A stretch of DNA of 49,863 nucleotides, taken from the UHGV virus genome UHGV-1522688; one strand, written 5' to 3'. Made by a program: the position numbers and the translations under genes. The DNA comes from a virus. Below are positions 1-49,863 of the stretch, one piece after another (position 1 is the stretch's first letter; each line of letters starts with the position of its first letter). The notes below the pieces were generated by a model. The model was not told the DNA's origin. It did not search any database and was given only the letters and a program-made list of their open reading frames with translations.

Positions 1-151
1 ATTTAAATAATTCACTTTAAATTCAATCATATAATCACACAAATACATCCAGAATCCAAATTAAGGGCGCATTTAGGTACACATTAACCTACGCGCCCTC
101 TCTTTTAGTTACCACCTATACTTTCAGTCTGACATATGGCTGGAGGTTTTT

Positions 152-823
152 ATGTGTGGACGTTTTTCACAGTCAATGACGCGTGAAGACTATCTAGCCC
201 TTCTCGCTGAAGAAGTCGAACGAGACATTCCATATGGCCCTGAACCGATCGGACGTTTCAACGTTGCGCCCGGAACCAAAGTTCTGCTACTGAGCGAACG
301 TGATGAGAAACTCCATCTTGATCCAGTTATCTGGGGATACGCCCCCGGGTGGTGGGATAAACCACCACTAATTAATGCACGCTCTGAAACTGCGGCCACC
401 AGCAGAATGTTTAAACCACTCTGGCAGTATGGTCGTGCAATTTGCTTTGCTGATGGATGGTATGAATGGAAAAAGGAAGGTGACAAAAAGCAGCCCTACT
501 TCATTCATCGAGCCGATGGCCAGCCGATATTCATGGCGGCGATCGGCAGAACACCATTCGAACGTGGAGATGAAGCAGAAGGATTCCTGATAGTGACGGC
601 TGCTGCAGACAAAGGGCTGGTAGATATTCACGACAGGCGGCCGCTGGTTCTGTCACCAGAAGCCGCTCGCGAATGGATGAGGCAGGACATTGGAGGGAAA
701 GAAGCTACGGTAATTGCGGCTGACGGTTCCGTGCCGGCTGATAAATTTTCATGGCATGCTGTAATGCGTGCCGTCGGGAATGTTAAGAATCAAGGACCAG
801 AGTTAATAGAAACTATGCGTTGA
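152..823 (+). CDS. yedK: SOS response-associated peptidase YedK (SRAP family, abasic-site processing)
   Basis: 223 aa starting MCGRF (Cys2 nucleophile signature of SRAP/YedK); collinear with enterobacterial YedK as recalled. Confidence 0.9.
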   Translation: MCGRFSQSMTREDYLALLAEEVERDIPYGPEPIGRFNVAPGTKVLLLSERDEKLHLDPVIWGYAPGWWDKPPLINARSETAATSRMFKPLWQYGRAICFADGWYEWKKEGDKKQPYFIHRADGQPIFMAAIGRTPFERGDEAEGFLIVTAAADKGLVDIHDRRPLVLSPEAAREWMRQDIGGKEATVIAADGSVPADKFSWHAVMRAVGNVKNQGPELIETMR

Positions 824-1053
824 CGTACGAAGCGACAGAGAAAAACATCTGCTTTGAGCGAAAAGTGGCAGTTGAAGACAATCATGAACGATCTATGACT
901 CGATATTTACTTAATTCACTGTTATTCAAAGGGTTAAGTAAAAAAATATTATCTGTCACCTCAGTGCAATGCAATCTAAGGTTTCAAAGAACCCCCCTTT
1001 GAGTACACCGTAAGTTTTAAAATGTGAGGTAAGTTGATTTTACATATTTTCTA

Positions 1054-2124
1054 ATGCATTATCATACGTCCCTTAAAATAAATCATATTACTGAGAAAAA
1101 AATGTCCAACATTAATTTATTCGATGATGTAGTGCCTTTAGAAAAACAACATCCAATATATACAATGATGAAAGAAGAACGCTACAAACCGGAGAGAGAT
1201 GTAATTAATCAATGGGCAAAAGGATTTCAAGACCGAGACAATAAATTTGCTAAAGAATTTCAAACAAGTTTTGAACCTTGCCTATGGGAATTATATCTTT
1301 TTGCCTATCTGAAAGAATTAGGCTTAAGGAGCGACTTTTCATACGACGCTCCTGACTTCGTCGTCAATGATCCAGATTTTTGCATTGAGGCAACTATTGC
1401 ACTTCCAGCACAAGGAGACCTTGGGGCGCATGGTTTCAGTAAGGAAGATATGCCGAGAGATTTTAATAAATTTAATTCTGAAGCATCTATTCGACTTAGT
1501 AATAGCTTTATATCAAAGGTTAAAAAATTAAGATCGAGATATTCTCTACTTCCTCAATGTAAAGAAAAACCTTTTGTAATCGCCATAGCTTCATTCGACA
1601 GACCTTTTGCACACTTTGCAGCAGCTAGGCCCATACTTGCAACATTATATGGCCTATACCATGATGAAGAAGCAACCATTGAATCAGGGTCAAAGAGTAT
1701 AATTTCTTATAACGTCGATGCTGCAGTAAAAAAAGAAAATGTTAATATAGACATGGGGTTATTCTGCACACCTGAATATTCGGATGTAAGTGCTGTGATT
1801 TATAGTAGTTTAGCTACTTGGGGAAAAGTAAGAGCCCTTGCGGACAACCCTTCTGCTCTAACGATTTATACATCATTTACTCCAAAGGAAAACTCATTAT
1901 TTCCTGAAGTTCATCAAGCCTTAAAAAGTGATTATGTAGAACATCTAGCGGATGGGTTATATATTTTACACAACCCATTTGCCAAGCATCCATTGCCTAA
2001 AGAGACACTAAGTCATCCAAGAATAGCGCAAGGTTATATTGAGCCAGATGGATACGTTAATTTTATAGCGCCAGATGATTTTCTTTTATTGCGTTTTTTA
2101 CAATCGTTAAATTTGAAAGAGTAG
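1054..2124 (+). CDS. hypothetical protein, A+T-rich islet gene 1 (possible PD-(D/E)xK-like nuclease core)
   Basis: 356-aa ORF (alternative start at MSNINLFDD, about 1102); helix then 'DAPDFVVNDPDFCIEATIA' resembles a restriction-endonuclease-like strand motif; no family recognised. Confidence 0.5.
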   Translation: MHYHTSLKINHITEKKMSNINLFDDVVPLEKQHPIYTMMKEERYKPERDVINQWAKGFQDRDNKFAKEFQTSFEPCLWELYLFAYLKELGLRSDFSYDAPDFVVNDPDFCIEATIALPAQGDLGAHGFSKEDMPRDFNKFNSEASIRLSNSFISKVKKLRSRYSLLPQCKEKPFVIAIASFDRPFAHFAAARPILATLYGLYHDEEATIESGSKSIISYNVDAAVKKENVNIDMGLFCTPEYSDVSAVIYSSLATWGKVRALADNPSALTIYTSFTPKENSLFPEVHQALKSDYVEHLADGLYILHNPFAKHPLPKETLSHPRIAQGYIEPDGYVNFIAPDDFLLLRFLQSLNLKE

Positions 2125-2283
2125 TAATTATGGTCACATCTAATTACTTTACATAGATACCCACTAGAAAGGGGACTTTTCTTAAAACTCAGCCGTCAAA
2201 GATTTAGAGTGGTTATCTACTGGTATGCTTCCGAATCTGCCAGTGCGGCTGAGTGGATTTCTAGTACCCTCTAGAAGATTTAG

Positions 2284-3132
2284 TTGATTAAAACAGGTCA
2301 TGTATCATCTTCAGAGTCAACATATCGCCAACTGTCTATCATTCCATTGAGGAAAAGTATGTCATCAGAAAATTTTGTCACCTTCTGGCTCGCTAGAGCC
2401 GATCTTCCATACTTTCTTGAACCTCATGAATTTTACGTTTCGGAGGCCAAGCGTAGACTTCTATCGCAGTTTGGCGATTTAGAACAAGAAGCAGAAAGGA
2501 GGGAACAACAGTATTTGGAAGCTACCTCAAAATATTTCGATCCTGATAACGATGATCCAATGGCTGCCTACGAGCAAGCCTACCACGTGGGAATTAATTA
2601 TGTATGGTCGCTTCTGGAGATGCAAAATACCGTGTTGTTGGCATTAACGGCAGGAATGTACCACCAGTTTGATAAAAAACTAAGAGAACACACCATCAAA
2701 GAACTAAGTAACTGGTGCAAAAGAGAATTAATTACTCCCATGATCTGGAATATAACTTTCCATCAGCTTATTGATTTACTCGAATGGATTGGCCTCAAAA
2801 TCAATGGAACCGGATACGGAGAGAGGATCAAAGCCTGTAACTTGGTAGTAAACGTATACAAGCATGGGGACGGGCCTGCGCATCAAACACTATCATTCAA
2901 TCATCCTGAGTACTATCAACACCCTACCGATGTTCGAGGTACGCAGAACATACATGACCATGATGATTTACATGTATCAGAAGAGCAATTTGTAGAGTTT
3001 GCTGACGCAATAACTGAATTCTGGAAAGCAGTTCCAGAGAATTGCTATTACTCAGATCTCAAAGAAGAACCCAAATGGTTGAGTAAAGTCGTAACAAAAT
3101 TCGATAAAAAACAGAAGGGAAATAGGGACTAA
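2284..3132 (+). CDS. hypothetical protein, A+T-rich islet gene 2
   Basis: 282-aa ORF (alternative start MSSENF about 2359) directly downstream of gene 1 on same strand; no recognised family. Confidence 0.5.
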   Translation: MIKTGHVSSSESTYRQLSIIPLRKSMSSENFVTFWLARADLPYFLEPHEFYVSEAKRRLLSQFGDLEQEAERREQQYLEATSKYFDPDNDDPMAAYEQAYHVGINYVWSLLEMQNTVLLALTAGMYHQFDKKLREHTIKELSNWCKRELITPMIWNITFHQLIDLLEWIGLKINGTGYGERIKACNLVVNVYKHGDGPAHQTLSFNHPEYYQHPTDVRGTQNIHDHDDLHVSEEQFVEFADAITEFWKAVPENCYYSDLKEEPKWLSKVVTKFDKKQKGNRD

Positions 3133-3240
3133 TTACCCATCTCAAAACATCAAGTTTGCAGTGCCCTGCTCCCCGTTTATTAGTATGGAAGTTAACAATG
3201 TCTGCTTCTGACACATAACAGCCCTTAAGATGGTAACTCG

Positions 3241-3290
3241 CCGTCATGGGGTGTCGGGGGTCGGAGGTTCAAATCCTCTCGTGCCGACCA
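3241..3290 (+). other. partial tRNA-Pro (3' ~50 nt incl. T-arm, acceptor 3' strand and CCA); integration-site remnant
   Basis: 'ccgtcatggggtgtcgggggtcggaggttcaaatcctctcgtgccgacca' matches the 3' half of enterobacterial tRNA-Pro(CGG) as recalled; the 5' acceptor strand 'cggcacg' and D-arm are absent upstream. Confidence 0.7.
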
Positions 3291-3303
3291 AAAATCCTCG
3301 AAG

Positions 3304-3330
3304 AACCAGCCTGTTACGGCTGGTTTTTTT
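3304..3330 (+). terminator. rho-independent terminator following tRNA remnant
   Basis: 8-bp stem aaccagcc/ggctggtt with 6-nt loop followed by TTTTT. Confidence 0.55.
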
Positions 3331-3420
3331 ATGCCTGTTTTCTGAACGGGGAAGCAACGGGGAATAATTGGGGAAAAACCCCGACACAAAACATCGACTT
3401 TACCGTAAAGTTTCAGCTAT

Positions 3421-3810
3421 TCACATCACTGGGCAGTCATCAAACTCCGCGTTCCTGGCATCATTAATGATGTACGTGATAACACCAAATATTGCGTGTG
3501 AAGAATTATAGCCATCACCGTCTTCTGGCAGCACTTCTCTTCTCCCGTTCTCCAGATTTATCAGGTGGGGCTGAGGGTGAGTTCGGTATCGCTTGATCCT
3601 GAATTCCCCATCTATCGCGCATATCAGCAGCGAGCCATCACAGGCTGAAAGCGACGCGTCCACAACAAGTAGTGCCCCCTGGATTATCCCTTCCCTGAAA
3701 TGTGAACACGATGCCCGCATGAAATAAGTCGCTGCGGGCTGGCTGATTAGCTGTTGATCGAGGGAAATCCTTGTTTCAACGTAATCACTGGCAGGTGAAG
3801 GGAAGCCCAT
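3421..3810 (-). CDS. UmuD'-like protein, encoded without the N-terminal arm (begins at the position equivalent to UmuD Gly25)
   Basis: From internal ATG with GGAGG SD: MGFPSPASDYVETRISLDQQLISQPAATYF... aligns with E. coli UmuD residues 25 onward ([29 protein letters not shown]); C-terminal 'AIDGEFRIKRY...FGVITYII' matches UmuD fold; Lys of the Ser-Lys dyad retained, GDSM motif diverged to CSHF. Confidence 0.8.
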   Translation of the reverse strand: MGFPSPASDYVETRISLDQQLISQPAATYFMRASCSHFREGIIQGALLVVDASLSACDGSLLICAIDGEFRIKRYRTHPQPHLINLENGRREVLPEDGDGYNSSHAIFGVITYIINDARNAEFDDCPVM

Positions 3811-3812
3811 GG

Positions 3813-4055
3813 CTATAGTCCTCCGTTTGGATTGAAAAGCTGAAAGGTACGGTTCTCCCCTTCCTGCGTTGATACATCGCGGAATGATGTCACATACCAC
3901 TCGATCCATTCGTTAGCCTGCTTCATCGTCCAGTTCCAGTTAACCTTGCTCAGTTCCTGGACAAACCGCTGTGTGGTGACGGTCTTCCGGCCATTAGGTT
4001 CTTGCTGTATCGAAGCATGCCAGGCCATTTCAATATCGCTGCGTCGTGGCATCAA
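3813..4055 (-). CDS. hypothetical protein, upstream partner of UmuD'-like gene
   Basis: 80-aa ORF ending 2 nt before the UmuD'-like ATG; not UmuC-like. Confidence 0.45.
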   Translation of the reverse strand: MMPRRSDIEMAWHASIQQEPNGRKTVTTQRFVQELSKVNWNWTMKQANEWIEWYVTSFRDVSTQEGENRTFQLFNPNGGL

Positions 4056-4094
4056 TTAACCCCTCTTGAATACCGGATAAAAACACAGTATAAA

Positions 4095-4114
4095 TACTGT
4101 ATATCCATCCAGTA
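4095..4114. promoter_or_regulatory. putative LexA box (SOS operator) in divergent promoter region
   Basis: TACTGTATATCCATCCAGTA: CTGT-N8-CCAG, same variant half-site as the E. coli dinI box as recalled; sits 17 nt upstream of the dinI-like start. Confidence 0.55.
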
Positions 4115-4130
4115 AAGATGACTACAAGAA

Positions 4131-4373
4131 ATGTTCGTGGAACTCGTTTATGACAAAAGGAATTTTGATGGGCTGCCTGGTGCAAAAGATATCATTCTGG
4201 GCGAATTGACCAAGAGGGTTCACCGGATCTTCCCCGATGCTGATGTTCGGGTTAAACCGATGATGACACTGCCGGCGATCAACACTGACGCCAGCAAGCA
4301 TGAGAAGGAACAGATAAGCCGTACTGTTCAGGAAATGTTTGAAGAAGCTGATATGTGGCTGGTTTCAGATTAA
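4131..4373 (+). CDS. DinI-family protein (DNA damage-inducible protein I-like)
   Basis: 80 aa; C-terminal '...EQISRTVQEMFEEADMWLVSD' parallels DinI '...QRISEILQETWESADDWFVSE'. Confidence 0.7.
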   Translation: MFVELVYDKRNFDGLPGAKDIILGELTKRVHRIFPDADVRVKPMMTLPAINTDASKHEKEQISRTVQEMFEEADMWLVSD

Positions 4374-4501
4374 ACACCTTGAACCGTCATATTGCTTAAG
4401 TACAATCCGCCGTGACTGGCAATCATTCAATACTCGCACTATCGAACGTTCGCCAGTCGGCCGCAATCATGCTCTTGCATACGGCGTGGTTGCGGCAACC
4501 G

Positions 4502-6058
4502 TCAATTTTGCTGGCTACCTTTCAGCGTCTCAATCACATTCTTCAGGGAATTGAGTTCAGACATCTGTTCCTTCATCGCTCTGCCCATATAAACCATAGC
4601 GCATGCCATATCGGCCATAATGACATTATTATCAAGGGCAAGGGTATCGTCTTTGAGACCAACCTCAATCTGATGGTCAACATATTCGTTACCGGACTCA
4701 TCCACACCAACAACGTCCTCAAAAACAGGTCCACCAGGCACTATCTTTACGTACTGCGGATCAACTTTAGTCAGATCCTGGGCAATAAGGCCAAAACGCT
4801 GTGTATCCGACCCCTTATACTTAAACATGGTCGGTAACCACTGCATGACACGGTCGAAACTGTCTTTCCCGTCCCGATATTGGATATCTTCTTTTAGATC
4901 GCGGTCTGATGTCGCATTCTTGGCGAACACGTACGATCCCTGCCAGTTTGACCCGGATTCGTTCCATACGTCAGTAGTGATATCACCAGACTGAGGATTG
5001 AATCTGAACATCCTGTGATATCTGGCATCGCCCATAAAATGTAAGACGCCATGTGGCCAGCCATTGGCACCATTAGAAATGAGTCCCAGTGACAGACGAG
5101 TACTCCACCCACCCGATGCAGAAGAACCACCAGAAACGATTGGAGCCCAGCCACCATCATTTCCACCAACAATGGCGGACCAGTAAGGGGTGGTCCATGG
5201 ACCATCAACATCCCCCCAGCCACCCGATCCGCACTGTCCCCAGAAACCACGTGGTGATTGTATAACCCCACCATAACCAGAAAGAAAGTTGAAACGGTAT
5301 GTGTTCGCTCCTGCTCCAAAACTATTCGCGATTAGAGCAATGGCATCCAGATAATTACCCGCACCTCGTATCCCGCCAAACTGATAGAACGAATTCCCCA
5401 TCCACCCCTGCAGCTGGTTCATCATCCAGCCCAGTTCACCATCAACGTTATTCGACGTCAGTAAAATATCCTTCTTGACGCCAGCAGTGCTTTTGACGCC
5501 TGTACCCGACCCACCCGCCACCGAATTGACGCCACGGGTGCCAAGAACACTACCGAACGTAACATCCTGAGAGTTTCCCAAAGTGAGATTATCGCGGGCC
5601 GCATTTTTATCAGGCAGATCGGCCAGGGCCTGGCTTTTCAACAAAGCATTATTGATCTGATCAATAATGCTTTTCCATGATGGTCCTGTAAACTCCGTAT
5701 TGTCAGGAAGCCTGACAGTAATATTGCCGTTCGCAGAGAATAAAAGTTGCCAGTTCTGTTTGTCGTAATTCAGCCCCCGCAGCGCCTCCGTGTTCTGCAC
5801 CACCATTGCGGCAGTAACCATATTCAGCGCCACACGAGGAACAGCTGACCAGGCCGCGCCAGATTGGGTTGGCCCGGTGTAATTGCTGACCAGCGTCAAC
5901 GCTGTACCACTTTCCACGGACTTAACCGGAAGCGTATAGGGAACACCACCGACCGTAACAACAATAAAATCTCCGGCCGCCACCTCAGTGGTAAACGCGG
6001 TCCCGCTGCCAGCGACCGCAGCCGAGTTATTCATCAGGGTTAATGTTCCTGCTGACAT
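4502..6058 (-). CDS. side tail fiber protein with C-terminal intramolecular chaperone (peptidase S74-like) domain
   Basis: 518 aa; Gly/Ser-rich repeats; C-terminal 'SDRDLKEDIQY...RFGLIAQDL...' typical of auto-cleaving chaperone domain of phage fibers. Confidence 0.75.
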   Translation of the reverse strand: MSAGTLTLMNNSAAVAGSGTAFTTEVAAGDFIVVTVGGVPYTLPVKSVESGTALTLVSNYTGPTQSGAAWSAVPRVALNMVTAAMVVQNTEALRGLNYDKQNWQLLFSANGNITVRLPDNTEFTGPSWKSIIDQINNALLKSQALADLPDKNAARDNLTLGNSQDVTFGSVLGTRGVNSVAGGSGTGVKSTAGVKKDILLTSNNVDGELGWMMNQLQGWMGNSFYQFGGIRGAGNYLDAIALIANSFGAGANTYRFNFLSGYGGVIQSPRGFWGQCGSGGWGDVDGPWTTPYWSAIVGGNDGGWAPIVSGGSSASGGWSTRLSLGLISNGANGWPHGVLHFMGDARYHRMFRFNPQSGDITTDVWNESGSNWQGSYVFAKNATSDRDLKEDIQYRDGKDSFDRVMQWLPTMFKYKGSDTQRFGLIAQDLTKVDPQYVKIVPGGPVFEDVVGVDESGNEYVDHQIEVGLKDDTLALDNNVIMADMACAMVYMGRAMKEQMSELNSLKNVIETLKGSQQN

Positions 6059-6071
6059 GGATATCTCCTGA

Positions 6072-6100
6072 ATTAAGATAATAAAAAACCCGCCGGAGCG
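6072..6100. terminator. bidirectional rho-independent terminator
   Basis: stem aacccgc/gcgggtt with loop cgga, flanked by A-run on one side and T-run on the other. Confidence 0.5.
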
Positions 6101-6116
6101 GGTTATTTTTGGTATT

Positions 6117-6356
6117 TCATTGAGGGCAATTCGAACTGGTGAAATTATTTTTATTCACCCATCGCCAGTTAAAGGGATAACCGGCCCTGTACTCAGTCTG
6201 ATTAACAACTTTTTGCACACCGTAAATTTGCACTGACTGGGGCTGTCCACCAAGCACTAACTCAGCCTGACAAACCGGTTTCTGTTTCTCCAGAACAGGT
6301 CCTGAACAGGCTGAAAGCACCAGGCAGACAATAACTGGAATAATTATATTTTTCAT
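6117..6356 (-). CDS. small lipoprotein, possibly Cor-like superinfection-exclusion protein
   Basis: 79 aa; signal peptide with lipobox LSAC; located immediately after tail fiber genes, the usual cor position; function inferred from position only. Confidence 0.45.
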   Translation of the reverse strand: MKNIIIPVIVCLVLSACSGPVLEKQKPVCQAELVLGGQPQSVQIYGVQKVVNQTEYRAGYPFNWRWVNKNNFTSSNCPQ

Positions 6357-6464
6357 TTCGATACCAGAGTTAATTATTTAAACAAAAAATAACCAATGGC
6401 ATTGAATAATAAAAATAGTTTTAATAGATCAATATTCTAAAATTGATCGTTTAAATCGATCAGT

Positions 6465-7139
6465 TTAATCATATGCAGCTGTGTTTATCGCCGTTATCAC
6501 AATTCCACTATTTGTCGTACCGATTGAAGAGCCGCTTGCTGTTGTTGATGTAAGTCCTTTTATTCTCGTTCCCGCACCTTCATTGAAGCAACCTGTACCC
6601 ACATCCACAGACTGAATGATTGGCTGTCCACCAGGTGCCGAACCAGCATGAAGGAGAACAGATCCCAGCCCCATCGGATTTATGGCCCATTTGCCTGCCA
6701 TGTATGTATCAATGTTAAGCCCACCACTTACAGCACCTGGTGAACCAATAGTTGTAAGGTCGCTTAATACCCGGGACTCATTCGTAAGTACCAGTGTCCC
6801 TTCGGCATCCCATATAGCCACCCCCCAGGCAGGAAGCGTAAGCGGATATATGGCAAAAAAATAGGCCTCAAGGACAAAAGCCGATCCCCTGTAATTAGAC
6901 GCATTAACACTGAACGTATTGCCACTTTTTGAAGCTGATATCTTCGCCGGGGCGCTGGTTCGTGCAAATGCAATCCCTCCCTTCTGACCGTCGATAGTAA
7001 CAGACGCCGAAACACTGTTAAAATTCCCCCCAAAAGTTGAGTTTACAGTGACTTTCCGGTAAAGCGTCATTGGTGTGGAATCAGGCGTGATAAAAGGGTT
7101 CCCGTTAGGTAATGAAATCAATGCGCCATATTTAGCCAT
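6465..7139 (-). CDS. hypothetical phage protein (tail-associated by position)
   Basis: 224-aa ORF between J and tail fiber, contiguous with upstream ORF. Confidence 0.5.
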   Translation of the reverse strand: MAKYGALISLPNGNPFITPDSTPMTLYRKVTVNSTFGGNFNSVSASVTIDGQKGGIAFARTSAPAKISASKSGNTFSVNASNYRGSAFVLEAYFFAIYPLTLPAWGVAIWDAEGTLVLTNESRVLSDLTTIGSPGAVSGGLNIDTYMAGKWAINPMGLGSVLLHAGSAPGGQPIIQSVDVGTGCFNEGAGTRIKGLTSTTASGSSIGTTNSGIVITAINTAAYD

Positions 7140-7454
7140 CTACGCAGTCTCCGCAAAAACGATTAACTGCACTTTGACTGCCGGGTAATCATTAATCCCA
7201 TCACTACCTGAAGGCTGTATTGTTATGGTGTTTCCAGATGCAATAATATTTCTTTTATCTGTGTAACTTATTGTCCCTTTATCCTCCAGAGTACCAACCG
7301 CAAAACCGACCTTTAAACCGGGCTCGAGGTTGAACTGGTAGCTTCCCGTTTTCTGACCTAAAGCAAGATCGATGATTCCCACCACGGTTACAGGTTTAAT
7401 GCCATAGTTATTCGGGACACCGTTAGCGTCCCATGTCTGAATTCCCCATGTCAT
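7140..7454 (-). CDS. hypothetical phage protein (tail-associated by position)
   Basis: 104-aa ORF immediately downstream of J. Confidence 0.5.
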   Translation of the reverse strand: MTWGIQTWDANGVPNNYGIKPVTVVGIIDLALGQKTGSYQFNLEPGLKVGFAVGTLEDKGTISYTDKRNIIASGNTITIQPSGSDGINDYPAVKVQLIVFAETA

Positions 7455-10400
7455 CAGAATACCCCTGTTAATTTGCCAATCTGCACGCGGAGAACGCCAT
7501 TGCCATCTTTAACGCTGTAATTCAGATTGGTCATTTTCGTTGCCCCCTCCCCGGCAACAGCCCCATTCATTTCAAACGTTCCGTCTGATTTCATAATGGT
7601 GCCTGTTTGTCCCTGAACATAATTAGCGGAGCGCAGTTCGCCAATTTTTGCCAGAGTGATTTGACTATACTGAATAAAAGCATCGCTGATAAACACCTGA
7701 CCATTAATAGAAGCAAACGGAGAATATTGTGTATCACCGCTGCCACTCATCAGGACGAACTGATTGGCGTTAAAGCCGACACGGGTGACTACCGGCTTAC
7801 CCGCTTCGGCCAGCACGGCAATCGACATCCCGGCGTTATACATCACACCGTTTATTCGAACTCCGGTTTTAAGAGTGTAAATTGCAGATGCCCCGGTCGC
7901 ATCAACCACGGCGGTGAGCTTATCTTCCAGCGCGGCAGTCACATCATTGAACTGCGCCTGCACCTGCGTCGACATTTCAGCCATGGCTTTATCGACCTGC
8001 GCAATGGTCGTTTTAACCACCAGAATATCCGCGCGTACCTCGCCGTACTGCGCCCACTGGTGTTCCACGGTTGCATGGTTGGCCAGCGCGTTCTGCAATG
8101 CGGCTTCGAGATTGGTATCAATGTCGCCAGTCAGGCGGTCACCGTCGGCAGATGTCAGGAAGTCATCAGCAATATCGCCCAGGTAGTCGTCAGCATTCGC
8201 ATTAGATTCACCACGAACCCAGTCGGTCCAGTCACTCTGATTACCAATGCGATCAACCAGACGAGCCCGGTACCAGAACTCCTGACCTGCCTTCAAACCC
8301 AGTTGGGTATATGTGTGTTGAGGATACGGAACTCCTGCAAGCAGCAGAGGATTATCCCCATTTCCGTTTGCTGAATACTGCAGTTCGGTCTGGAGAGTAT
8401 CACCTGTATCCGCCGGAAAGGACCAGTCAGCCTGTATGCCCCAGTTGATTGCTGTGGTGCGCAGACCAACCGGCTTGGGAACATCCCCAGTACGTCCAGT
8501 GAGATGAGTCAGCACAGAAGAGGTCCACAAACTGGACGCTCCACCAGAGTTAATGGCGCGGACTCTCACGAGGTAATCGCCTGAGAAAATCCCGGCGATC
8601 TCTATATTGCGCAAGCCTGTTTCGGGAATGTTGATCCACTCATTATCACCACGTTTCCACTGTGCCTGATACGCGACAATATCCGCCTGAGGTTTCCCGT
8701 TTTTATCTACTGGCGCATCCCAACTCGCAACCATGGTTGCAATACGCTGCCCCTGCCGGACCGAGTCGTAACTGCTAATCGCGATATTCGTGGGCTGGCT
8801 AACCAGGCCTATCGGTAACAGACTAATCGGCGGCGTATCCAGCCGGGCGTTGTTATCAACGGCATCGTACTTAGCCCCGTTGTACTCTGCACCGGTGATA
8901 CTGTAGGTGTTCTCTTCATCGTTAAATGTCAGATTGGTTACACGGAAATACTGGAGGCGCAACTGGCCTGCATCGATAACAAAAATGGCATTAGGTTGTG
9001 GCTCAGCGGTAAAGGCAGTAGCCAGTATCAGTTGCTGGCCGTTAACCGCCTGAATGGTTCTGCTCTCAACGGTACCGCCCAGGGTACGAATCATCAGCGT
9101 ATCACCCGCCACCGCACTCGTGCCGCGATCGGTAGTTACTGACTTCAACCCTGCATCGTAATCAGTAATACGTCCACCATAGACACGCCCAGACAGCCGC
9201 TCATCTGCAAACGCAAATACGGTCCCCGGCACATAAGCGAAGCCATCGAGTCCCGTCTGGACAGTGATAATACGGTCCAGAGAATTGGAGTACACTGCCC
9301 AACCACCCCGGCGCTGAGCTTCGCTTTCACGTGTGCAGCCAATCGCGGTTAGCTGAGTCTGCTTAAACTTGAACTGCTTAACCAGATCGGGAAACATCAC
9401 TGCAGTAGTGCGATCCTGATAGTGGTTATCCGGGTCACTAAAGTTAATCAGCGCTGAGCTATAGCGATTCTTTTCACTGCCGCTGGAATAGGTTGGTTTC
9501 CCGACCACAGAGGCACGGGTGAGGATCTGAAGTTTTGACGTATCCGCAGGCATATCAGAGACAACATTGAACATGTTGTTGCCCCAGAAAGTCATTCCGT
9601 TGAAGCCCGCGGCAATATCTTTAATCACCTGCCAGGCATCAGCCTGGGACTGGATGTAAACGTCAAACATGAAGCGTGGCTCGGTAACGCTTCCGCCTTT
9701 CCCGTCGGGTACCTTCTGGTCGCAGCGCTGGGCGATGCGATAGAGCTCCCACTTATCGAGCATTTCTGGCGTCACGCGGCGCCCAAGACCGAAGCGCGGC
9801 TCAGTCACAACATCGAACCAAATCCACGCCGGGTTATTCGTCCAGCCCCATTTAAACGTCCCGTCCCATGTTCCGCTATAAGTCCGCGCTATTGGATCAT
9901 AGTTCGAAGGGATTCGGATGATGCGCCCCTTCGGCATGCAGGAAATCTTAGGGATGTTGTTGAATGACTTTGCGTTAAAGGACACGTACAGCAGCGCTGT
10001 GTGTGGATATCGTAGGCGAGCATCGATCACCTCAGTAATCGCTTGCACCTGCGTTTTGTTCTGCAGCATCTGGCTGGTGCTGTCATCGGTGTCACGCACC
10101 ACTCGAATTTGCCAGCCAGTGCTGGCTTTGGGAAGATTAATACGGTGGGTTAGTTCATAGAGCGAACTGAGCTTCTCTGTGACGGTTTTAGTCATGACTG
10201 TCGAGTAAGCGCCACCGTCCACCGCAAGGTCAATATGGTACTGAACCGTGGTGCCGACAATATCCCCATCGTTTTCCTGCTGCTGTAACCCAGGGATGCC
10301 AATACGAACCAGCACCGCGTCAATCTGGGTGTTACTCAGTGCGCGGGTCCATGGTGTGGCCTTTGTCAGCGATACGCCAACCGTAGTTTCATTCTCGACT

Positions 10401-10663
10401 GCAGGGAATCCCGGTATTGGTGTCTGTGTCTGTGTGCCAGGCCGGAATTCCCATGACACATTTTCAAAATTCATCGTTCCGTCGGGGTTTCCCAACGGCG
10501 TACCGTCCAGGAATATCCGGGTCGCATCCAGGCCACCAGCAAACTCACCCTCCCCGAGCGCCAGCAGCATGCGGCAGCGCGCCATTGACTGAGCCGAATC
10601 GGGCTGTTCTACAGGTGTATGCTGCTTCTGGCTGCCACCCTTTGCACCAGTGATCACTTCCAT
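7454..10663 (-). CDS. J: host specificity protein J (central tail fiber / tail tip)
   Basis: Start taken at MEVITGAKGGSQKQHTP; long blocks similar to lambda gpJ (e.g. 'IPSNYDP...YSGTWDGTFK', 'DKWELYRIAQRCDQKVPDG'). Confidence 0.9.
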   Translation of the reverse strand: MEVITGAKGGSQKQHTPVEQPDSAQSMARCRMLLALGEGEFAGGLDATRIFLDGTPLGNPDGTMNFENVSWEFRPGTQTQTPIPGFPAVENETTVGVSLTKATPWTRALSNTQIDAVLVRIGIPGLQQQENDGDIVGTTVQYHIDLAVDGGAYSTVMTKTVTEKLSSLYELTHRINLPKASTGWQIRVVRDTDDSTSQMLQNKTQVQAITEVIDARLRYPHTALLYVSFNAKSFNNIPKISCMPKGRIIRIPSNYDPIARTYSGTWDGTFKWGWTNNPAWIWFDVVTEPRFGLGRRVTPEMLDKWELYRIAQRCDQKVPDGKGGSVTEPRFMFDVYIQSQADAWQVIKDIAAGFNGMTFWGNNMFNVVSDMPADTSKLQILTRASVVGKPTYSSGSEKNRYSSALINFSDPDNHYQDRTTAVMFPDLVKQFKFKQTQLTAIGCTRESEAQRRGGWAVYSNSLDRIITVQTGLDGFAYVPGTVFAFADERLSGRVYGGRITDYDAGLKSVTTDRGTSAVAGDTLMIRTLGGTVESRTIQAVNGQQLILATAFTAEPQPNAIFVIDAGQLRLQYFRVTNLTFNDEENTYSITGAEYNGAKYDAVDNNARLDTPPISLLPIGLVSQPTNIAISSYDSVRQGQRIATMVASWDAPVDKNGKPQADIVAYQAQWKRGDNEWINIPETGLRNIEIAGIFSGDYLVRVRAINSGGASSLWTSSVLTHLTGRTGDVPKPVGLRTTAINWGIQADWSFPADTGDTLQTELQYSANGNGDNPLLLAGVPYPQHTYTQLGLKAGQEFWYRARLVDRIGNQSDWTDWVRGESNANADDYLGDIADDFLTSADGDRLTGDIDTNLEAALQNALANHATVEHQWAQYGEVRADILVVKTTIAQVDKAMAEMSTQVQAQFNDVTAALEDKLTAVVDATGASAIYTLKTGVRINGVMYNAGMSIAVLAEAGKPVVTRVGFNANQFVLMSGSGDTQYSPFASINGQVFISDAFIQYSQITLAKIGELRSANYVQGQTGTIMKSDGTFEMNGAVAGEGATKMTNLNYSVKDGNGVLRVQIGKLTGVF

Positions 10664-10718
10664 ATTACATCCATAAAAAAAGCACCCAATTGGGTGCTTG
10701 ATATTCAGAAAGGAGTTT

Positions 10719-11312
10719 TCAGATGTCTTCTGCGACGATGCCAGCACTGATGATGGCGCCGCCAATCTCGCGCTCACCATAAAGAAGCGCGACCGGGTTA
10801 CCCATCGCAAGGGTGTTCACCGAGCCACCGAAGGCATATGAGGGTCTATTGTCAGGATCGTCTCGCCCCTGTAGTCCTTTGGGCTGGGGCGAAAGCATCT
10901 GGTAAATCCCACCAGCCATCATTCCGATACCAGCGGAGACCATACCCGCGCCAATGATACCTGCTGAACCGAACGTCATGCCCGTGACGACGATGCCCGC
11001 CACAACCATGACAGCACCCAATATTGTCTGGAACAAACCCGCTTTTTTTGCCCCTTCCATCACGGGTGCTATGCGAATATCGGTGCTTCCGGCTAGGTTC
11101 TTAAAATCATCCGCGCCAATGTTGCGCCTGCCGCGAAACACCGCGAACGTCATACCATTCTTTTTGGCGTTCAAAAGATAGCTTTCCAGCCCGTCCAGGT
11201 TGATACATAACGCCTTCACGGCTTCCGCTGACGTCTGCACCGCCAGTTTATGCACGCGCCCAAATCGCGCACCCAGCGCACCGTACAATCGAATCGTGGT
11301 TAAGCGCGCCAT
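10719..11312 (-). CDS. I: tail assembly protein I
   Basis: 197 aa, position between K and J, Gly/Ala-rich hydrophobic C-terminal half typical of gpI. Confidence 0.7.
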   Translation of the reverse strand: MARLTTIRLYGALGARFGRVHKLAVQTSAEAVKALCINLDGLESYLLNAKKNGMTFAVFRGRRNIGADDFKNLAGSTDIRIAPVMEGAKKAGLFQTILGAVMVVAGIVVTGMTFGSAGIIGAGMVSAGIGMMAGGIYQMLSPQPKGLQGRDDPDNRPSYAFGGSVNTLAMGNPVALLYGEREIGGAIISAGIVAEDI

Positions 11313-13369: not shown

Positions 13370-14983
13370 ATGAATATTGTGCATTATGCAGCCATTGGAG
13401 CTGTAGCTTTCGTAGTTGTTCTAACAATTTTGGTGATAAACATCATTAAATTAAAGTCAGCCAAGGCTGATGCAGCAGAAAAGGCGGCAAAACTTGAGCG
13501 TTACGCGTCAATCACCAATGCTGAAACAGAAGCTGAACGAATCGTGAATGCAGCTAAGCAAACCGCAGAAGAGTTAATTATTGATTCGCAGAATAACCTT
13601 GACGAGGCAAAAGCTGAAGCAGCCAACACTATTGCAGCCAGTGAAAAAGATGCAAGATCTATAACACAGCGTGCGGAGGATATTCTATCAGATGCGCGTT
13701 TAGCAGCTAAGCGAATGAACGCAGAGGCGCTGACCGCTGTAGAAACACAAAGAGTCAAGCGTGCAGAAATTGAAAAACAGATTGATGAATTGCGTAAATC
13801 CTATCGTGAGAAAAAAATCACTTACGATGAGCTGACGGAAGCCCTGTCAATTTATAAAGATGATATGGAATTTGCTGACATGGGGTTCTATGCACCACAC
13901 TTCGATTTTGATACCTCGGCTAGTTTTCAGGATGCGATCAAGGCATGTCGCGAACGGCAAAAAAATCTGCTACGTGACAAAACTGAATTTGGCGCAATAC
14001 ATTGCCCTACTGAATGGACGGTTGGCGGCTCTAAAAGTGAAGGTCGGAAAATGACCACTCGCGGCATTCAGATGACAGCACGTGCATTCAATGGTGAGTG
14101 TGATGCAGCTATTGCAAACTGCACATTTAAAAACGTTTATCAAATGGAGCAAAGAATTTATAAAGCCTTTGATGCCTTGAATAAGATGAATGAGGTTAAC
14201 CAGATTTACATCAATCGTGCTTTTTTAGATTTGAAGCTGGATGAACTTCGACTTACACATGAATATCGTTTGAAAAAACAAGAAGAACGAGAAGAACAAC
14301 GTGAAATCCGCGCTCAGATGGCTGAGGAGAAGCGAGCTCAAGCCGAAATTGATCGTGCACTTCGAGAGGCTGAAGATGAAGAACGCCGCGCCCAAAAAGC
14401 GTTGGATAAAGCCCGAAAAGAAATGGAATCGAAGCTAGCCCAAATGACAGCTGAGCAAGTTGAGAAACACCAAGCGAAGGTATCCGAATTAGAACATGCC
14501 TTAGAAGAGGCATTGTTGAAAGGCCAAAAAGCTCTTTCTATGGCTCAACAAACTAAACGCGGCCACGTGTACGTTATCTCTAATATTGGTTCGTTTGGTG
14601 ATGATGTTTTTAAAATAGGAATGACACGTCGACTTGACCCTCAAGATCGAGTGGATGAACTGGGTAGTGCATCAGTCCCATTCCTGTTCGATGTTCATGC
14701 AATGATTTTCAGTGAAGATGCACCAACAATGGAAAACATGCTCCACCAGCGTTTCAATGAGCAACGCACTAACCTAGTTAATAAGCGTAAAGAGTTTTTC
14801 AATGTAAAATTAAGCGATATCAAAGATGCTGTGTTTGAGATCGCAGGTAAAGATGTAGATTTTATCGAAACAGCAACTGCTCAGCATTATTATGAAACAA
14901 AGGCAATTCGTAAGCAGAAAGCGGATATCATTTCAGTTGTTCCTCAAGAGGAAAAACTACCTAAATTTGCGGACGCAATATAA
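13370..14983 (+). CDS. membrane-anchored coiled-coil protein with DUF4041-like region and C-terminal T5orf172/MUG113 (GIY-YIG-like) domain; candidate defence/exclusion factor
   Basis: 537 aa; N-terminal hydrophobic helix (AIGAVAFVVVLTILVINII); long Ala/Glu/Lys/Arg-rich helical stretches; C-terminal 'GHVYVISNIGSFGDDVFKIGMTRRLDPQDRVDEL...VPF...LHQRFNEQRTNLVNKRKEFF' matches T5orf172 signature as recalled; opposite strand to the tail operon; A+T-rich. Confidence 0.7.
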   Translation: MNIVHYAAIGAVAFVVVLTILVINIIKLKSAKADAAEKAAKLERYASITNAETEAERIVNAAKQTAEELIIDSQNNLDEAKAEAANTIAASEKDARSITQRAEDILSDARLAAKRMNAEALTAVETQRVKRAEIEKQIDELRKSYREKKITYDELTEALSIYKDDMEFADMGFYAPHFDFDTSASFQDAIKACRERQKNLLRDKTEFGAIHCPTEWTVGGSKSEGRKMTTRGIQMTARAFNGECDAAIANCTFKNVYQMEQRIYKAFDALNKMNEVNQIYINRAFLDLKLDELRLTHEYRLKKQEEREEQREIRAQMAEEKRAQAEIDRALREAEDEERRAQKALDKARKEMESKLAQMTAEQVEKHQAKVSELEHALEEALLKGQKALSMAQQTKRGHVYVISNIGSFGDDVFKIGMTRRLDPQDRVDELGSASVPFLFDVHAMIFSEDAPTMENMLHQRFNEQRTNLVNKRKEFFNVKLSDIKDAVFEIAGKDVDFIETATAQHYYETKAIRKQKADIISVVPQEEKLPKFADAI

Positions 14984-15043: not shown

Positions 15044-15532
15044 TTACATGTTTTTGTAATAGCCGACTTTAGAATCAAAGTCCTGTTTTGCGAGTGGCGT
15101 TTGGCTTGTCACATAAGTCTCCCAGGAGCTGTACGCCTCTACGAGCGCGCGCTTTTCTTCTGCATCCTTAGTACTCGATTTCATTATTTCAAACACTCCA
15201 GAAGCATTCTCTTTGCGTTTGTTTTTTCTGTTAGCGCCGCAAGTCGCTATTGCATCGGCTACAGAATTATTCCACCCAACCAACTGCAGGATCTCCATTC
15301 TCTTTTGAATCACGAACTGATCCGCAGACGCATTCCGTGCCTGAGTCGACAGGTATTCAGCAAACTCCATTTTGTTCATTGGCACTTTGGAGACTGACTC
15401 AATATTTACGTCACACTTCGAAAGCTCATCATACTTGGCTTGTTTTTGCGCGTTGTTGACTGGACCATTGCCCGCGCACGCAGAAAGAGCCATTGCTAAC
15501 ACCACTGTCGTGAAGACCTTTTTCATTATCAT
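15044..15532 (-). CDS. lipoprotein of unknown function (moron)
   Basis: 162 aa; MKKVFTTVVLAMALSAC lipobox signal peptide; convergent with 13370-14983; A+T-rich. Confidence 0.6.
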   Translation of the reverse strand: MIMKKVFTTVVLAMALSACAGNGPVNNAQKQAKYDELSKCDVNIESVSKVPMNKMEFAEYLSTQARNASADQFVIQKRMEILQLVGWNNSVADAIATCGANRKNKRKENASGVFEIMKSSTKDAEEKRALVEAYSSWETYVTSQTPLAKQDFDSKVGYYKNM

Positions 15533-47094: not shown

Positions 47095-47108
47095 TGGAGG
47101 ATTTGACC

Positions 47109-48476: not shown

Positions 48477-48677
48477 ATGGATGATATTTTGCTGACGTCA
48501 GACCTGACCAGTCGATACAAAATCTCACGTAAAACCCTTTGGTCATGGCAAAGCACAGACACGATGCCGCGGGGTTTTGCGAAGCCGTTCCCCGCCCCGG
48601 ACTTCCCCGGTAACCCTAACCGCTGGAAGTCGGAGTCAGTCAAAGAGTGGGAAGGTGTGAAACAGCCAATTAACTGA
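48477..48677 (+). CDS. xis: excisionase (AlpA/Xis-family HTH)
   Basis: 66 aa; '[12 protein letters not shown]' HTH typical of AlpA-type; adjacent to integrase. Confidence 0.7.
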
Positions 48678-49863
48678 ACGGCTCACCGATGATGTTTTCA
48701 AGATGGCTCTGCCAAACGTGGAGCCAGTGTTTTTGATCATCGATGTAGTCATGCAGGTTATAGTGCGCCATCACGCCAACCATTTGGTGACCAAGTAACT
48801 TTTCAATCACATGCGGCGGACAGCCAAGTTCTGAAAGATTTGTTGCGATTGTTCTTCTCATATCATGGAGAGACCAGGGCTCCATGCCGGATTCTGACCA
48901 AATATACCTGGCGTAGTTCGAAGCAACTGGCGGATGAACCGGGACGTCTTTAATTTCCCCATCCAATAAGCGCTGTGAAGTGACTAAATGCTTTGTGTTG
49001 ATCTTCTCAAGATGATTTTTTACCAGTCCCACCGCAGCATCAGAAAGAGCCCTTCTCATGTGCACTCGCGTTTTGTAACTTCCAGCAGGAACTATCCATT
49101 CATTTTCATCCAGCTTGAACCATGACCTTTCGCTTAACCGAATCTCTGCCGTCCTACAGCCGGTCAACATAATAAATTTCACAAGAAACACGGACTCTAT
49201 GGACATGCGGTTTTGCAGCCACCGATAAATAGCCACCAGCTCACGATCATCCAAGCGCCGCGTTCTCTTTTTCGGTTTTTGGCCAACGTCAGTGGGTAGC
49301 AATCCCTCGAGCGGATTGGTCGATATTACGCCTCGGTTAATACAGAACCTGAATGAGCGTTTGCACAGCGAAAGCATATAATGAGCCATCACCCTGCTTT
49401 CAATCTGATCAAAAACATCTATCCAGTGCCTTTTTGTCGAATTGTCGACTTTGACGTTTCGCATCGGTTCGGCGATATGCTTGGCAAATACCAACTGATA
49501 ATAACCTGTCTTTGTCAGTTGATTAGCGATGCAGTGTTTCTCGATCCAATAATTGAATGCTTCCGATACGGCCATGGAACCTTCGCGGGTCAATTTCTCC
49601 AGCTTTACTTGCTCTCGGGGATCGAGTCCTTCAGTAAGCCAGATTCTGAATTGCTGACGCCTTTCCCTTGCCTGAGCAATACTCATTGCTGGATAATCGC
49701 CGACATTGAGTTTTACAGCTTTGCCTGCCCATCTGTACCGGTAGAAGAAAGAGACCTTTCCGGCCAGACTGATTCTTGCGTTGAGTCCGTGAGAATCTGA
49801 AATAATTTCGATATCATCGCGTTTCTTGCCAAGGGCCTTCCTGAGCTTTGTGTCAGTGATCAT
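48670..49863 (-). CDS. int: tyrosine integrase (start at or beyond window edge)
   Basis: 397 aa; catalytic-domain motifs '[11 protein letters not shown]', 'LHDMRRT', 'MAHYNLH'; N-terminus 'TDTKLRKA' typical of P4-like integrases. Confidence 0.9.

What the first reader, a model, noticed from the sequence alone, without database searches (positions are those of the whole stretch)
824..3240. A+T-rich two-gene islet between yedK and the tRNA-Pro remnant
Two same-strand genes (about 340 and 260 aa) of strongly A+T-biased composition lie between the core gene yedK and a tRNA-Pro 3' fragment. The first protein has a helix followed by 'DAPDFVVNDPDFCIEATIA', suggestive of a PD-(D/E)xK nuclease-like core. 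Location at an integration hotspot and composition suggest horizontally acquired cargo, possibly a small defence system or the remains of an earlier element.
Basis: partly seen in the sequence, partly recalled or inferred. Interest (0 to 1): 0.55.

Follow-up and report, generated by a model that had tools for sequence, protein, structure and literature searches.

The report
Two stacked prophage defence-type gene cassettes
The A+T-rich islet is two unrelated single-gene cassettes stacked near one end of a resident prophage: a homologue of the known anti-phage nuclease gene PD-T7-5, and an uncharacterised gene whose predicted HEPN-like fold makes it a candidate second defence gene.

Summary
Two intact same-strand genes lie between an SRAP ("yedK-like") gene and a tRNA-Pro 3' fragment. 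They are gene 1 (1102-2124, 340 aa) and gene 2 (2359-3132, 257 aa). The islet is 37.7% G+C; its surroundings are about 51%.

Gene 1 is a full-length homologue of PD-T7-5 (PADLOC E 3.9e-102). PD-T7-5 is a single-gene E. coli anti-phage system with a PD-(D/E)xK-like motif.

The genes are not a two-gene system. Each occurs alone in other phages, and their similarity to those copies ends sharply, with a 10-nt overlap at 2291-2300.

The tRNA-Pro fragment is a fossil phage attachment arm, not a local tRNA remnant. Related loci keep the same flanks with different cargo.

Verdict: a known defence gene beside a modestly interesting candidate, in a variable cargo slot that most likely lies inside the resident prophage.

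The parts
65..104 (+). Hairpin between yciI and SRAP (GGGCGCATTTAGGTACACATTA...). It contains an integrase arm-like motif and is a candidate left attachment site of the integrated element.
   Evidence: The same 22-mer with one mismatch lies about 270 bp outside the identical integrase gene in L118, L120, L122 and L123. It is also present in the prophage-free C. braakii locus L010, so its role is unresolved.
152..823 (+). SRAP-family gene ('yedK-like'), the paralogue next to yciI/tonB.
   Evidence: Pfam SRAP 2e-50. Context is trpA..ompW-yciCBA-tonB-yciI. It is 91% identical to Citrobacter SRAPs. It is colinear with the prophage-free locus L010.
848..2300 (+). Gene 1 cassette: upstream region, gene and 176 nt downstream.
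   Evidence: The same ends occur at 92-93% nt identity in a P2-like prophage (L088) and a lambdoid nin region (L124). An E. coli island (L001) matches at 86%.
1102..2124 (+). Gene 1: PD-T7-5 homologue, 340 aa, a predicted PD-(D/E)xK-like nuclease. E63, P84-D85 and E96 are invariant.
2291..2300 (+). 10-nt AAACAGGTCA shared by the end of the gene 1 cassette and the start of the gene 2 cassette; the joint between the two.
   Evidence: It ends the gene 1 cassette in L001 (exact) and L088 (one mismatch), where gene 2 is absent. It starts the gene 2 cassette in L002 and L090, where gene 1 is absent.
2291..3161 (+). Gene 2 cassette.
   Evidence: Window 2291-3136 matches P1-like phage-plasmid contigs L002-L004 and L090 (84%). 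Window 2330-3161 matches L089 and L125 (86%).
2359..3132 (+). Gene 2: 257-aa member of an unannotated family (phrog_19541). It is all-helical with a HEPN-like fold. H169 is invariant within V164-N-x-x-K-H-G-x-G172, and R109 is also conserved.
3196..3242 (+). Conserved right-flank motif (GTCTGCTTCTGACACATAACAG...). It reads as a decayed 5' half of the tRNA.
   Evidence: Related motifs follow the cargo in L008, L013, L088, L116, L002 and L090.
3243..3296 (+). tRNA-Pro(GGG) 3' fragment, about positions 28-77. Not a functional tRNA.
   Evidence: ARAGORN finds none and Rfam finds none. A 50-nt stretch is identical to a repeat in Enterobacter L053 and matches intact tRNA-Pro genes in L053, L039, L082 and L083.
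3297..3420 (+). Terminator hairpin plus repeated ACGGGGAA/GGGGAA motifs: a phage-type attachment arm.
   Evidence: Conserved in phage Eeyore next to its integrase, in Gifsy-2, and in L008, L013, L116 and L117. The arm motifs are absent downstream of the chromosomal tRNA-Pro in L083.
3421..3909 (-). S24 (UmuD-like) peptidase gene, the first conserved prophage gene to the right of the slot.
   Evidence: Pfam Peptidase_S24 1.8e-09. Conserved with DinI and tail-fibre genes in L008, L013, L116, L117 and Eeyore.
4131..4373 (+). DinI-family gene.
   Evidence: Pfam DinI in the identical contig. Annotated as DinI in E. coli relatives.
48670..49863 (-). Tyrosine integrase at the far end of the prophage. 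The window ends at its start codon.
   Evidence: Arm-DNA-bind_3 plus Phage_integrase. The identical protein lies beside yciY-cls in L118-L123.

Best explanation
The islet is two independent single-gene cassettes placed side by side. They sit in the variable, attachment-site-proximal accessory arm of a lambdoid (HK639-like) prophage, in a bacterium whose SRAP gene and flanks are closest to the Citrobacter freundii group.

Gene 1 is a PD-T7-5-family protein. Its N-terminal region (about residues 58-107) has a PD-(D/E)xK-like nuclease core. The rest is an alpha/beta domain of unknown role. By inference from the E. coli prototype, it protects the lysogen against infecting phages, most likely by cutting nucleic acid.

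Gene 2 is a stand-alone member of a large unannotated family with a HEPN-like helical bundle and an invariant histidine. The most likely function, by inference only, is a second autonomous defence or abortive-infection effector, probably an RNase. That would resemble the solo HEPN proteins HepS and Tha, but with an atypical active site.

Shown: homology, folds, cassette boundaries, independence of the two genes, and the variable slot. Inferred: anti-phage activity here, the substrates, and that both genes are expressed from the prophage.
For: Gene 1:
- PADLOC PD-T7-5 3.9e-102 over 1-340 of 346 positions.
- PD-T7-5 was cloned as one CDS and validated (Vassallo 2022, Table S2).
- Its HHpred nuclease hits fall at residues 58-107. 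Our invariant E63, D85 and E96 lie there.

Gene 2:
- High-confidence model.
- H169 is invariant and N165, K168, G170, G172 and R109 are conserved at 90% or more across sequences 23-46% identical to gene 2.
- The family length is uniform at about 230-265 aa.

Independence:
- Gene 1 at 86-96% identity occurs alone in an E. coli island, a P2-like prophage and a lambdoid nin region.
- Gene 2 homologues occur alone in 25 IMG/VR loci, in a P1-like phage-plasmid and in chromosomal sites.
- HMM searches of all fetched loci find both genes together only in copies of this same contig.
- Neighbours of gene 2 homologues share no conserved partner.

Variable slot:
- C. murliniae L008 and C. braakii L013 keep window 700-861 and 3185/3201 onward. 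They carry a NUDIX gene or a 274-aa gene instead.
- The C. braakii locus L010 has yciI-SRAP followed by core genes, with no islet or prophage.

Defence context:
- Neighbours of gene 2 homologues include PD-T4-3, PDC-S25, ThsA-like, RT and PIN proteins.
- This prophage also carries a PD-Lambda-1 homologue.
Against: - No activity was measured for either protein.
- PD-T7-5 itself has no known mechanism.
- For gene 2, Foldseek against PDB gives nothing significant. There is no sequence link to any HEPN family. The canonical Rx4-6H arginine is replaced by a conserved valine.
- One gene 2 homologue sits beside a Tad2-like anti-defence gene, so an anti-defence role is possible.
- The left boundary of the prophage is not established, because the window ends at the integrase.
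Confidence: 0.68

Rival explanations
1. The two genes form one cooperative two-gene defence system, for example a nuclease plus a HEPN partner or regulator expressed as an operon.
For: They are adjacent, on the same strand and both A+T-rich, 234 nt apart. The arrangement recurs in 5 metagenomic contigs.
Against: Those 5 contigs are the same locus. Neither gene accompanies the other anywhere else: 25 viral loci and 5 other contexts for gene 2, and 3 contexts for gene 1. PD-T7-5 works as a single cloned gene. Each gene keeps its own upstream region and its own cassette ends.
Confidence: 0.06
2. The islet lies outside the prophage. On this reading it is a chromosomal island between a core SRAP gene and a tRNA-Pro attachment site, left by an earlier element.
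For: The fragment has the form of an att scar: the tRNA 3' part, plus a decayed 5' half. Intact tRNA-Pro genes lie next to SRAP genes in other genera, and L053 shows a tRNA...50-nt repeat pair around an SRAP gene. The SRAP flank is colinear with the C. braakii core locus.
Against: The prophage-free locus L010 has no tRNA or islet after SRAP. The same flanks and fragment occur at a second chromosomal site (L013) and inside an e14-like prophage at icd (L116). The sequence to the right of the fragment is the phage-type arm, as in Eeyore. The integrase of this prophage is not associated with tRNA-Pro.
Confidence: 0.2
3. Gene 2 is not a defence effector. It could be another kind of phage accessory protein, such as an anti-defence factor, a regulator or a nucleotide-binding protein built on a catalytically dead HEPN-like scaffold.
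For: The HEPN arginine is missing. There is no match to any defence HMM. A homologue lies next to a Tad2-like gene in a P1-like element. Some homologues sit in plain chromosomal contexts.
Against: An invariant His with conserved N, K and R suggests an active site. At 257 aa it is larger than typical anti-defence proteins (my own knowledge). It sits at prophage ends and in accessory regions alongside known defence genes.
Confidence: 0.3

Closest known systems
PD-T7-5 (Vassallo et al. 2022, Nat Microbiol; PMC9519451)
   Same: Gene 1 matches the family HMM end to end (E 3.9e-102). It has the same length class and the same nuclease-like motif position (residues about 58-107). It stands alone as a single gene and is carried on prophages and islands.
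   Different: This copy is in a Citrobacter-like lambdoid prophage rather than E. coli. It is about 90% identical to the E. coli copies found here. Its phage range and mechanism are untested.
PD-T7-1 (same study)
   Same: Weaker full-length similarity (E 1.9e-51) and the same type of weak PD-(D/E)xK prediction.
   Different: PD-T7-1 has an extra N-terminal region of about 100 residues. Gene 1 aligns to profile positions 99-436 of 452. It is a sister family, not the same one.
HepS, the solo HEPN abortive-infection protein of Gifsy-1 (Sargen et al. 2026, PMC13043305); also Tha of S. aureus prophages
   Same: Like gene 2 as predicted: a single-protein, prophage-encoded HEPN-fold protein with no conserved partner gene, in a prophage accessory region.
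   Different: [quoted passage not shown] Gene 2 has V-N-x-x-K-H. A profile search of PDB sequences found no similarity to any solved HEPN chain. Its activity is unknown.
HepT/MNT-type HEPN toxins (for example SO_3166, PDB 5yep; 7ae2)
   Different: They are about 130-140 aa with an RX4HXY motif and an adjacent MNT antitoxin. Gene 2 is 257 aa, has no MNT neighbour and lacks the arginine.
Defence and moron hotspots of temperate phages (P2/P4 hotspots, Rousset et al. 2022, PMC9122126; lambdoid accessory regions)
   Same: A fixed slot with conserved flanks and interchangeable cargo, including known defence genes. The same cassettes appear in P2-like, P1-like and lambdoid backgrounds.
   Different: This slot lies between an SRAP gene and a fossil tRNA-Pro attachment arm next to the UmuD-like and DinI genes. 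I did not find it described in the papers I searched.

Membership tests
PD-T7-5 defence family | Full-length match to the family profile | tested here: met
   PADLOC PDLC04110 E 3.9e-102, protein 20-351 (356-aa form) against profile 1-340 of 346.
PD-T7-5 defence family | Functions or occurs as a single gene without a conserved partner | tested here: met
   The prototype was cloned as one CDS. Homologues at 86-96% identity stand alone in L001, L088 and L124.
PD-T7-5 defence family | Nuclease-like motif at about residues 58-107 | tested here: met
   HHpred hits of the prototype fall at 58-107. E63, P84, D85 and E96 are invariant in 45 homologues.
PD-T7-5 defence family | Protects against phage (T7 in the original selection) | not testable with these tools
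   Requires a plaque assay.
PD-(D/E)xK nuclease superfamily (gene 1) | [quoted passage not shown] | tested here: inconclusive
PD-(D/E)xK nuclease superfamily (gene 1) | Catalytic D...(D/E)-x-K signature | tested here: inconclusive
   P84-D85 and E96 are invariant, but the third position is T98 (E-A-T). A lysine would have to come from elsewhere; K139 is invariant.
HEPN superfamily (gene 2) | Four-helix up-down bundle of the HEPN type | tested here: met
HEPN superfamily (gene 2) | Rx4-6H catalytic motif | tested here: not met
   The conserved motif is V164-N165-x-x-K168-H169. H169 is invariant and N165 is at least 90% conserved. The arginine position holds a conserved valine. R161 is not conserved and lies 7 residues away.
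HEPN superfamily (gene 2) | Sequence match to any described HEPN family | tested here: not met
   No Pfam family at E<=1 for gene 2 and none at E<=0.1 for 74 diverse members. No PADLOC HEPN system matches. The PDB profile search finds no HEPN chain.
HepS family | Sequence homology to STM14_3211 and the R100/H105 motif | not tested
   I could not identify the HepS sequence in the LT2 Gifsy-1 record. Only the motif difference and the negative PDB sequence search bear on this.
Two-gene defence operon | Conserved co-occurrence of both genes | tested here: not met
   Both genes are found together only in copies of this contig.
Functional tRNA-Pro gene | Complete cloverleaf detectable by tRNA finders | tested here: not met
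   ARAGORN finds 0 genes. Rfam finds no match at E<=1. Only about positions 28-77 are intact.

The most novel reading that the evidence does not exclude
Gene 2 would found a new, widespread family of stand-alone HEPN-like defence effectors (at least 1,361 clusters at 50% identity). Their active site would have lost the canonical arginine, using V-N-x-x-K-H plus a distal conserved R109. They would be carried as a mobile one-gene cassette that hops between P1-like, lambdoid and other prophages at short shared sequences.
Probability: 0.3. Interest if true: 0.55.

Novelty: new member of a known kind. Interest (0 to 1): 0.35.

Why it matters
Gene 1 only adds a Citrobacter prophage copy to a known but mechanistically unexplored defence family. 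The useful parts are three leads.
- Gene 2 is a large unannotated protein family with a confident model, an invariant histidine and a prophage-cargo lifestyle. It is a cheap candidate to test for anti-phage activity.
- The cargo slot is clearly delimited by conserved flanks (SRAP gene and fossil tRNA-Pro arm). Related prophages could be mined at this slot for further cargo.
- The cassettes have sharp, recurrent ends and a 10-nt joint. This hints at how single-gene defence cassettes move between unrelated phages.

Tried and rejected
1. I first read the divergence at the SRAP 3' end (about 797-808) as an attachment core inside SRAP. On re-reading, the C-terminal tails are homologous but diverged. 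No second copy of that core lies near the integrase in L118-L123. Rejected.
2. I first took the phage hits (Eeyore, Flotzy, Gifsy-2) to lie in gene 2. Those are query coordinates; the hits fall at window 3245-3386, the tRNA fragment and arm. This also explains the empty tblastn searches with gene 2.
3. E. coli KL53 carries a related integrase beside kch, but its other prophage end is rearranged to yecE. It does not help define attL.
4. Looking up the exact SRAP protein found only occupied copies of this locus, so no empty site from the same species was seen.
5. Foldseek against PDB for gene 2 gave nothing. The afdb50 library was unavailable.
6. Profile searches of PDB sequences gave nothing for either family.
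7. Promoter and terminator scans were at background level.
8. I could not pick out HepS in the LT2 Gifsy-1 record.
9. The alternative cargo genes in the same slot are not remote relatives of gene 1 or gene 2.
Full report
**What is there**

Window 1-3500 reads as follows. It starts with the end of the yciI region, including a hairpin at 65-104. Next is an SRAP-family gene (152-823, Pfam 2e-50). Two same-strand ORFs follow. After them come a tRNA-Pro 3' fragment (3243-3296) with a terminator, and then a prophage.

The prophage begins with an S24/UmuD-like gene (3421-3909, minus strand), a DinI gene (4131-4373) and a tail fibre gene. Its tail and head genes resemble phage HK639. It ends at a tyrosine integrase (48670-49863), exactly at the window edge.

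An identical 71-kb contig extends to the left of the window. It shows the chromosomal context trpA..ompW-yciC-yciB-yciA-tonB-yciI. The closest SRAP genes and flanks are from Citrobacter murliniae, C. werkmanii, C. braakii and C. youngae, at 85-91% identity.

The islet is 37.7% G+C, against 50.6% for SRAP and 50.9% for the prophage. ARAGORN and Rfam find no functional tRNA.

One correction applies to the label "yedK". This SRAP gene is the paralogue beside yciI. In C. braakii the ompS-dcm-vsr locus carries a second SRAP gene.

**Gene 1 (1102-2124, 340 aa)**

- It matches the PADLOC PD-T7-5 model end to end (E 3.9e-102), and PD-T7-1 more weakly. It also matches phrog_8571.
- PD-T7-5 came out of the functional selection of Vassallo et al. 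2022. It was cloned as one CDS and labelled "Nuclease". Its weak HHpred hits (Hjc, FokI_C, BsuBI/PstI, Vsr, PDDEXK_5, RmuC) fall at residues 58-107.
- In an alignment of 45 homologues, E63, P84-D85 and E96 are invariant.
- The signature reads E-A-T rather than E-x-K.
- No relative has a solved structure detectable by sequence.

The gene is an already named defence gene whose mechanism is still unknown.

**Gene 2 (2359-3132, 257 aa)**

- It has no Pfam, NCBIfam or PADLOC match. It matches phrog_19541, which has no known function.
- A word-indexed search found 73 homologues, all labelled hypothetical.
- An exhaustive profile search found 1,361 clusters at 50% identity with E<=1e-3. Nearly all of the 150 best-scoring representatives listed are stand-alone proteins of 230-265 aa.
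- None of 74 diverse members hits any Pfam family.
- Across these sequences (23-46% identical to gene 2), H169 is invariant. F25, F38, L85, R109, V164, N165, K168, G170, G172, L178, P183, F221, W222 and P226 are conserved at 90% or more.
- The model is confident and all-helical (pLDDT 90.2).
- Foldseek against PDB gives nothing significant, and there is no sequence link to any solved chain.
- The motif V-N-x-x-K-H has the spacing of the HEPN R-N-x-x-x-H. A conserved valine sits where the arginine should be.

I therefore call the fold HEPN-like. I do not file the protein as a canonical HEPN nuclease.

**The genes are not a unit**

- In E. coli, the match to gene 1 covers 1010-2300 and stops before gene 2. 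There the gene stands alone in an island next to IS5.
- A 96%-identical copy lies in a P2-like prophage between the tail genes R/S and V.
- A 93%-identical copy lies in a lambdoid nin region.
- Homologues of gene 2 occur in a P1-like phage-plasmid next to a Tad2-like gene, in chromosomal sites, and in 25 IMG/VR viral contigs. They are often within 1 kb of a contig end, and gene 1 is never present.
- HMM searches of every fetched locus find both genes together only in copies of this same contig.
- Neighbours of gene 2 homologues share no recurrent partner. They include tail, baseplate, integrase, resolvase and IS proteins. A handful are defence genes: PD-T4-3, PDC-S25, a ThsA-like SIR2 protein, reverse transcriptases, PIN and SocA.

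**Cassette anatomy**

- Similarity to the other gene 1 contexts runs from 848/855 to 2298/2300.
- Similarity to the other gene 2 contexts runs from 2291 or 2330 to 3136 or 3161.
- The two ranges overlap in the 10-nt AAACAGGTCA (2291-2300). This sequence ends the gene 1 cassette where gene 2 is absent, and starts the gene 2 cassette where gene 1 is absent.
- The two cassettes together fill the islet almost exactly.

**The slot and the tRNA fragment**

- C. murliniae (L008, same yciI-SRAP locus) and C. braakii (L013, the ompS-side SRAP locus) share window 700-861 and window 3185/3201 onward. The shared right-hand part covers the fragment, the S24 gene, DinI and the tail fibre.
- Between these flanks they carry other cargo: a NUDIX protein in L008 and a 274-aa protein in L013.
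- C. braakii L010 has yciI-hairpin-SRAP followed directly by core genes.
- The fragment, its terminator and the repeated ACGGGGAA/GGGGAA motifs lie next to the integrase in the complete genome of phage Eeyore, followed by UmuD-like, DinI, invertase and tail-fibre genes.
- They occur twice inside an e14-like prophage at icd in E. coli fEC.1, flanking cargo genes upstream of a phage-borne SRAP gene.
- They occur again in a prophage beside a tRNA gene annotated 'tRNA-OTHER' next to yodB, probably serU, in E. coli SC476.
- Downstream of a chromosomal tRNA-Pro (L083), the arm motifs are absent.
- The integrase of this prophage sits beside yciY-cls in other genomes, with no tRNA-Pro core nearby.

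The fragment is therefore a fossil attachment arm that travels with phage DNA. It is not a local tRNA remnant.

The true left end of the element is not resolved. One candidate is the hairpin at 65-104, which recurs about 270 bp outside the integrase in four genomes. That would make SRAP phage-borne. The other candidate is the sequence just after SRAP. Either way the islet lies inside the inserted DNA. I put this at about 0.7.

**Mechanism**

Shown: homology, folds, independence of the two genes, and a variable slot.

Inferred for gene 1: it acts as a PD-(D/E)xK-type nuclease defence, like its E. coli prototype.

Inferred for gene 2: it is an autonomous effector on a HEPN-like scaffold, probably an RNase. 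Functionally it would resemble the solo prophage HEPN proteins HepS and Tha. It differs in its active-site motif and is unrelated to them in sequence as far as could be tested.

An anti-defence or non-catalytic role for gene 2 remains open.

**Verdict**

The islet holds a known defence gene and a reasonable, untested candidate, stacked in a variable cargo slot that most likely lies inside the prophage. This is ordinary for temperate phages. Gene 2 and the cassette joints are the parts worth a follow-up.

Noticed in passing
window 13370-14983 (+): A 537-aa gene sits inside the tail-gene cluster, on the opposite strand to the surrounding genes. It is a full-length PD-Lambda-1 homologue (PADLOC 5e-201; Pfam DUF4041 plus T5orf172/MUG113). 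This is a second known single-gene defence system in the same prophage. The adjacent 162-aa ORF (15044-15532, minus strand) has no match.
   Followed up: partly
window 2291-2300; L001 8278; L002 5945; L090 9945: The 10-nt AAACAGGTCA is both the last bases of the PD-T7-5 cassette and the first bases of the gene 2 cassette in unrelated phages. It could be a recombination joint or a short shared core for cassette exchange.
   Followed up: partly
window 3196-3225; L008 9527; L013 9912; L088 11225; L116 4785; L002 6849; L090 10849: A motif of about 26 nt (consensus GTCCGCTTCTGGCACATAGCTGCCAT) follows the cargo genes in lambdoid, P2-like and P1-like contexts. In the P1-like loci it forms a perfect 9-bp hairpin. 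Next to the tRNA-Pro fragment it reads like a decayed 5' half of that tRNA. Its function is unknown.
   Followed up: partly
window 65-104; L118 4015-4055; L120/L122/L123 5693-5733: A hairpin between yciI and SRAP contains AGGTACACATT, the same motif as the integrase-proximal arm sites. It recurs about 270 bp outside the identical integrase gene in other genomes. It is a possible attL/attR pair, which would make the SRAP gene part of the prophage.
   Followed up: partly
L116 (E. coli fEC.1, NZ_CP085638.1) 3056-7964: An e14-like prophage at icd carries this order: icd' fragment, HNH (PtuB-like) nuclease, tRNA-Pro fragment, 261-aa unknown gene, tRNA-Pro fragment, SRAP, S24, DinI. The fossil tRNA-Pro arm is repeated and brackets cargo genes. 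The SRAP gene is clearly phage-borne there.
   Followed up: partly
L053 (Enterobacter sp. ECC-175) 5736-10799; L039, L082, L083: In several genera an intact tRNA-Pro(GGG) lies directly upstream of an SRAP gene. In L053 a 50-nt repeat of the tRNA 3' end lies 5 kb downstream, with the SRAP gene between the two copies. This looks like a small integrated element carrying SRAP.
   Followed up: no
L114/L115 (E. coli KL53, NZ_CP030919.1): A prophage with a related integrase (81% nt identity) abuts kch at one end and a truncated yecE (DUF72) beside yecD-aspS at the other. This suggests a chromosomal rearrangement between two prophage sites.
   Followed up: no
L112 7949-8817 and 10124-10885: One IMG/VR contig carries two members of the gene 2 family about 1.3 kb apart. 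One of them is broken into pieces.
   Followed up: no
L013 7992-8660 (C. braakii ATCC 51113): The SRAP gene at the ompS-side locus has an extra T near codon 5. This removes the MCGRF N-terminus, which includes the catalytic Cys2. It is either a pseudogene or a sequencing error.
   Followed up: no
window 41969-42508 (-), 44164-48149 (+): The early region of the prophage encodes a YdaT-toxin-domain protein and a RecE-like (976 aa) / RecT pair, as in Rac-type prophages.
   Followed up: no
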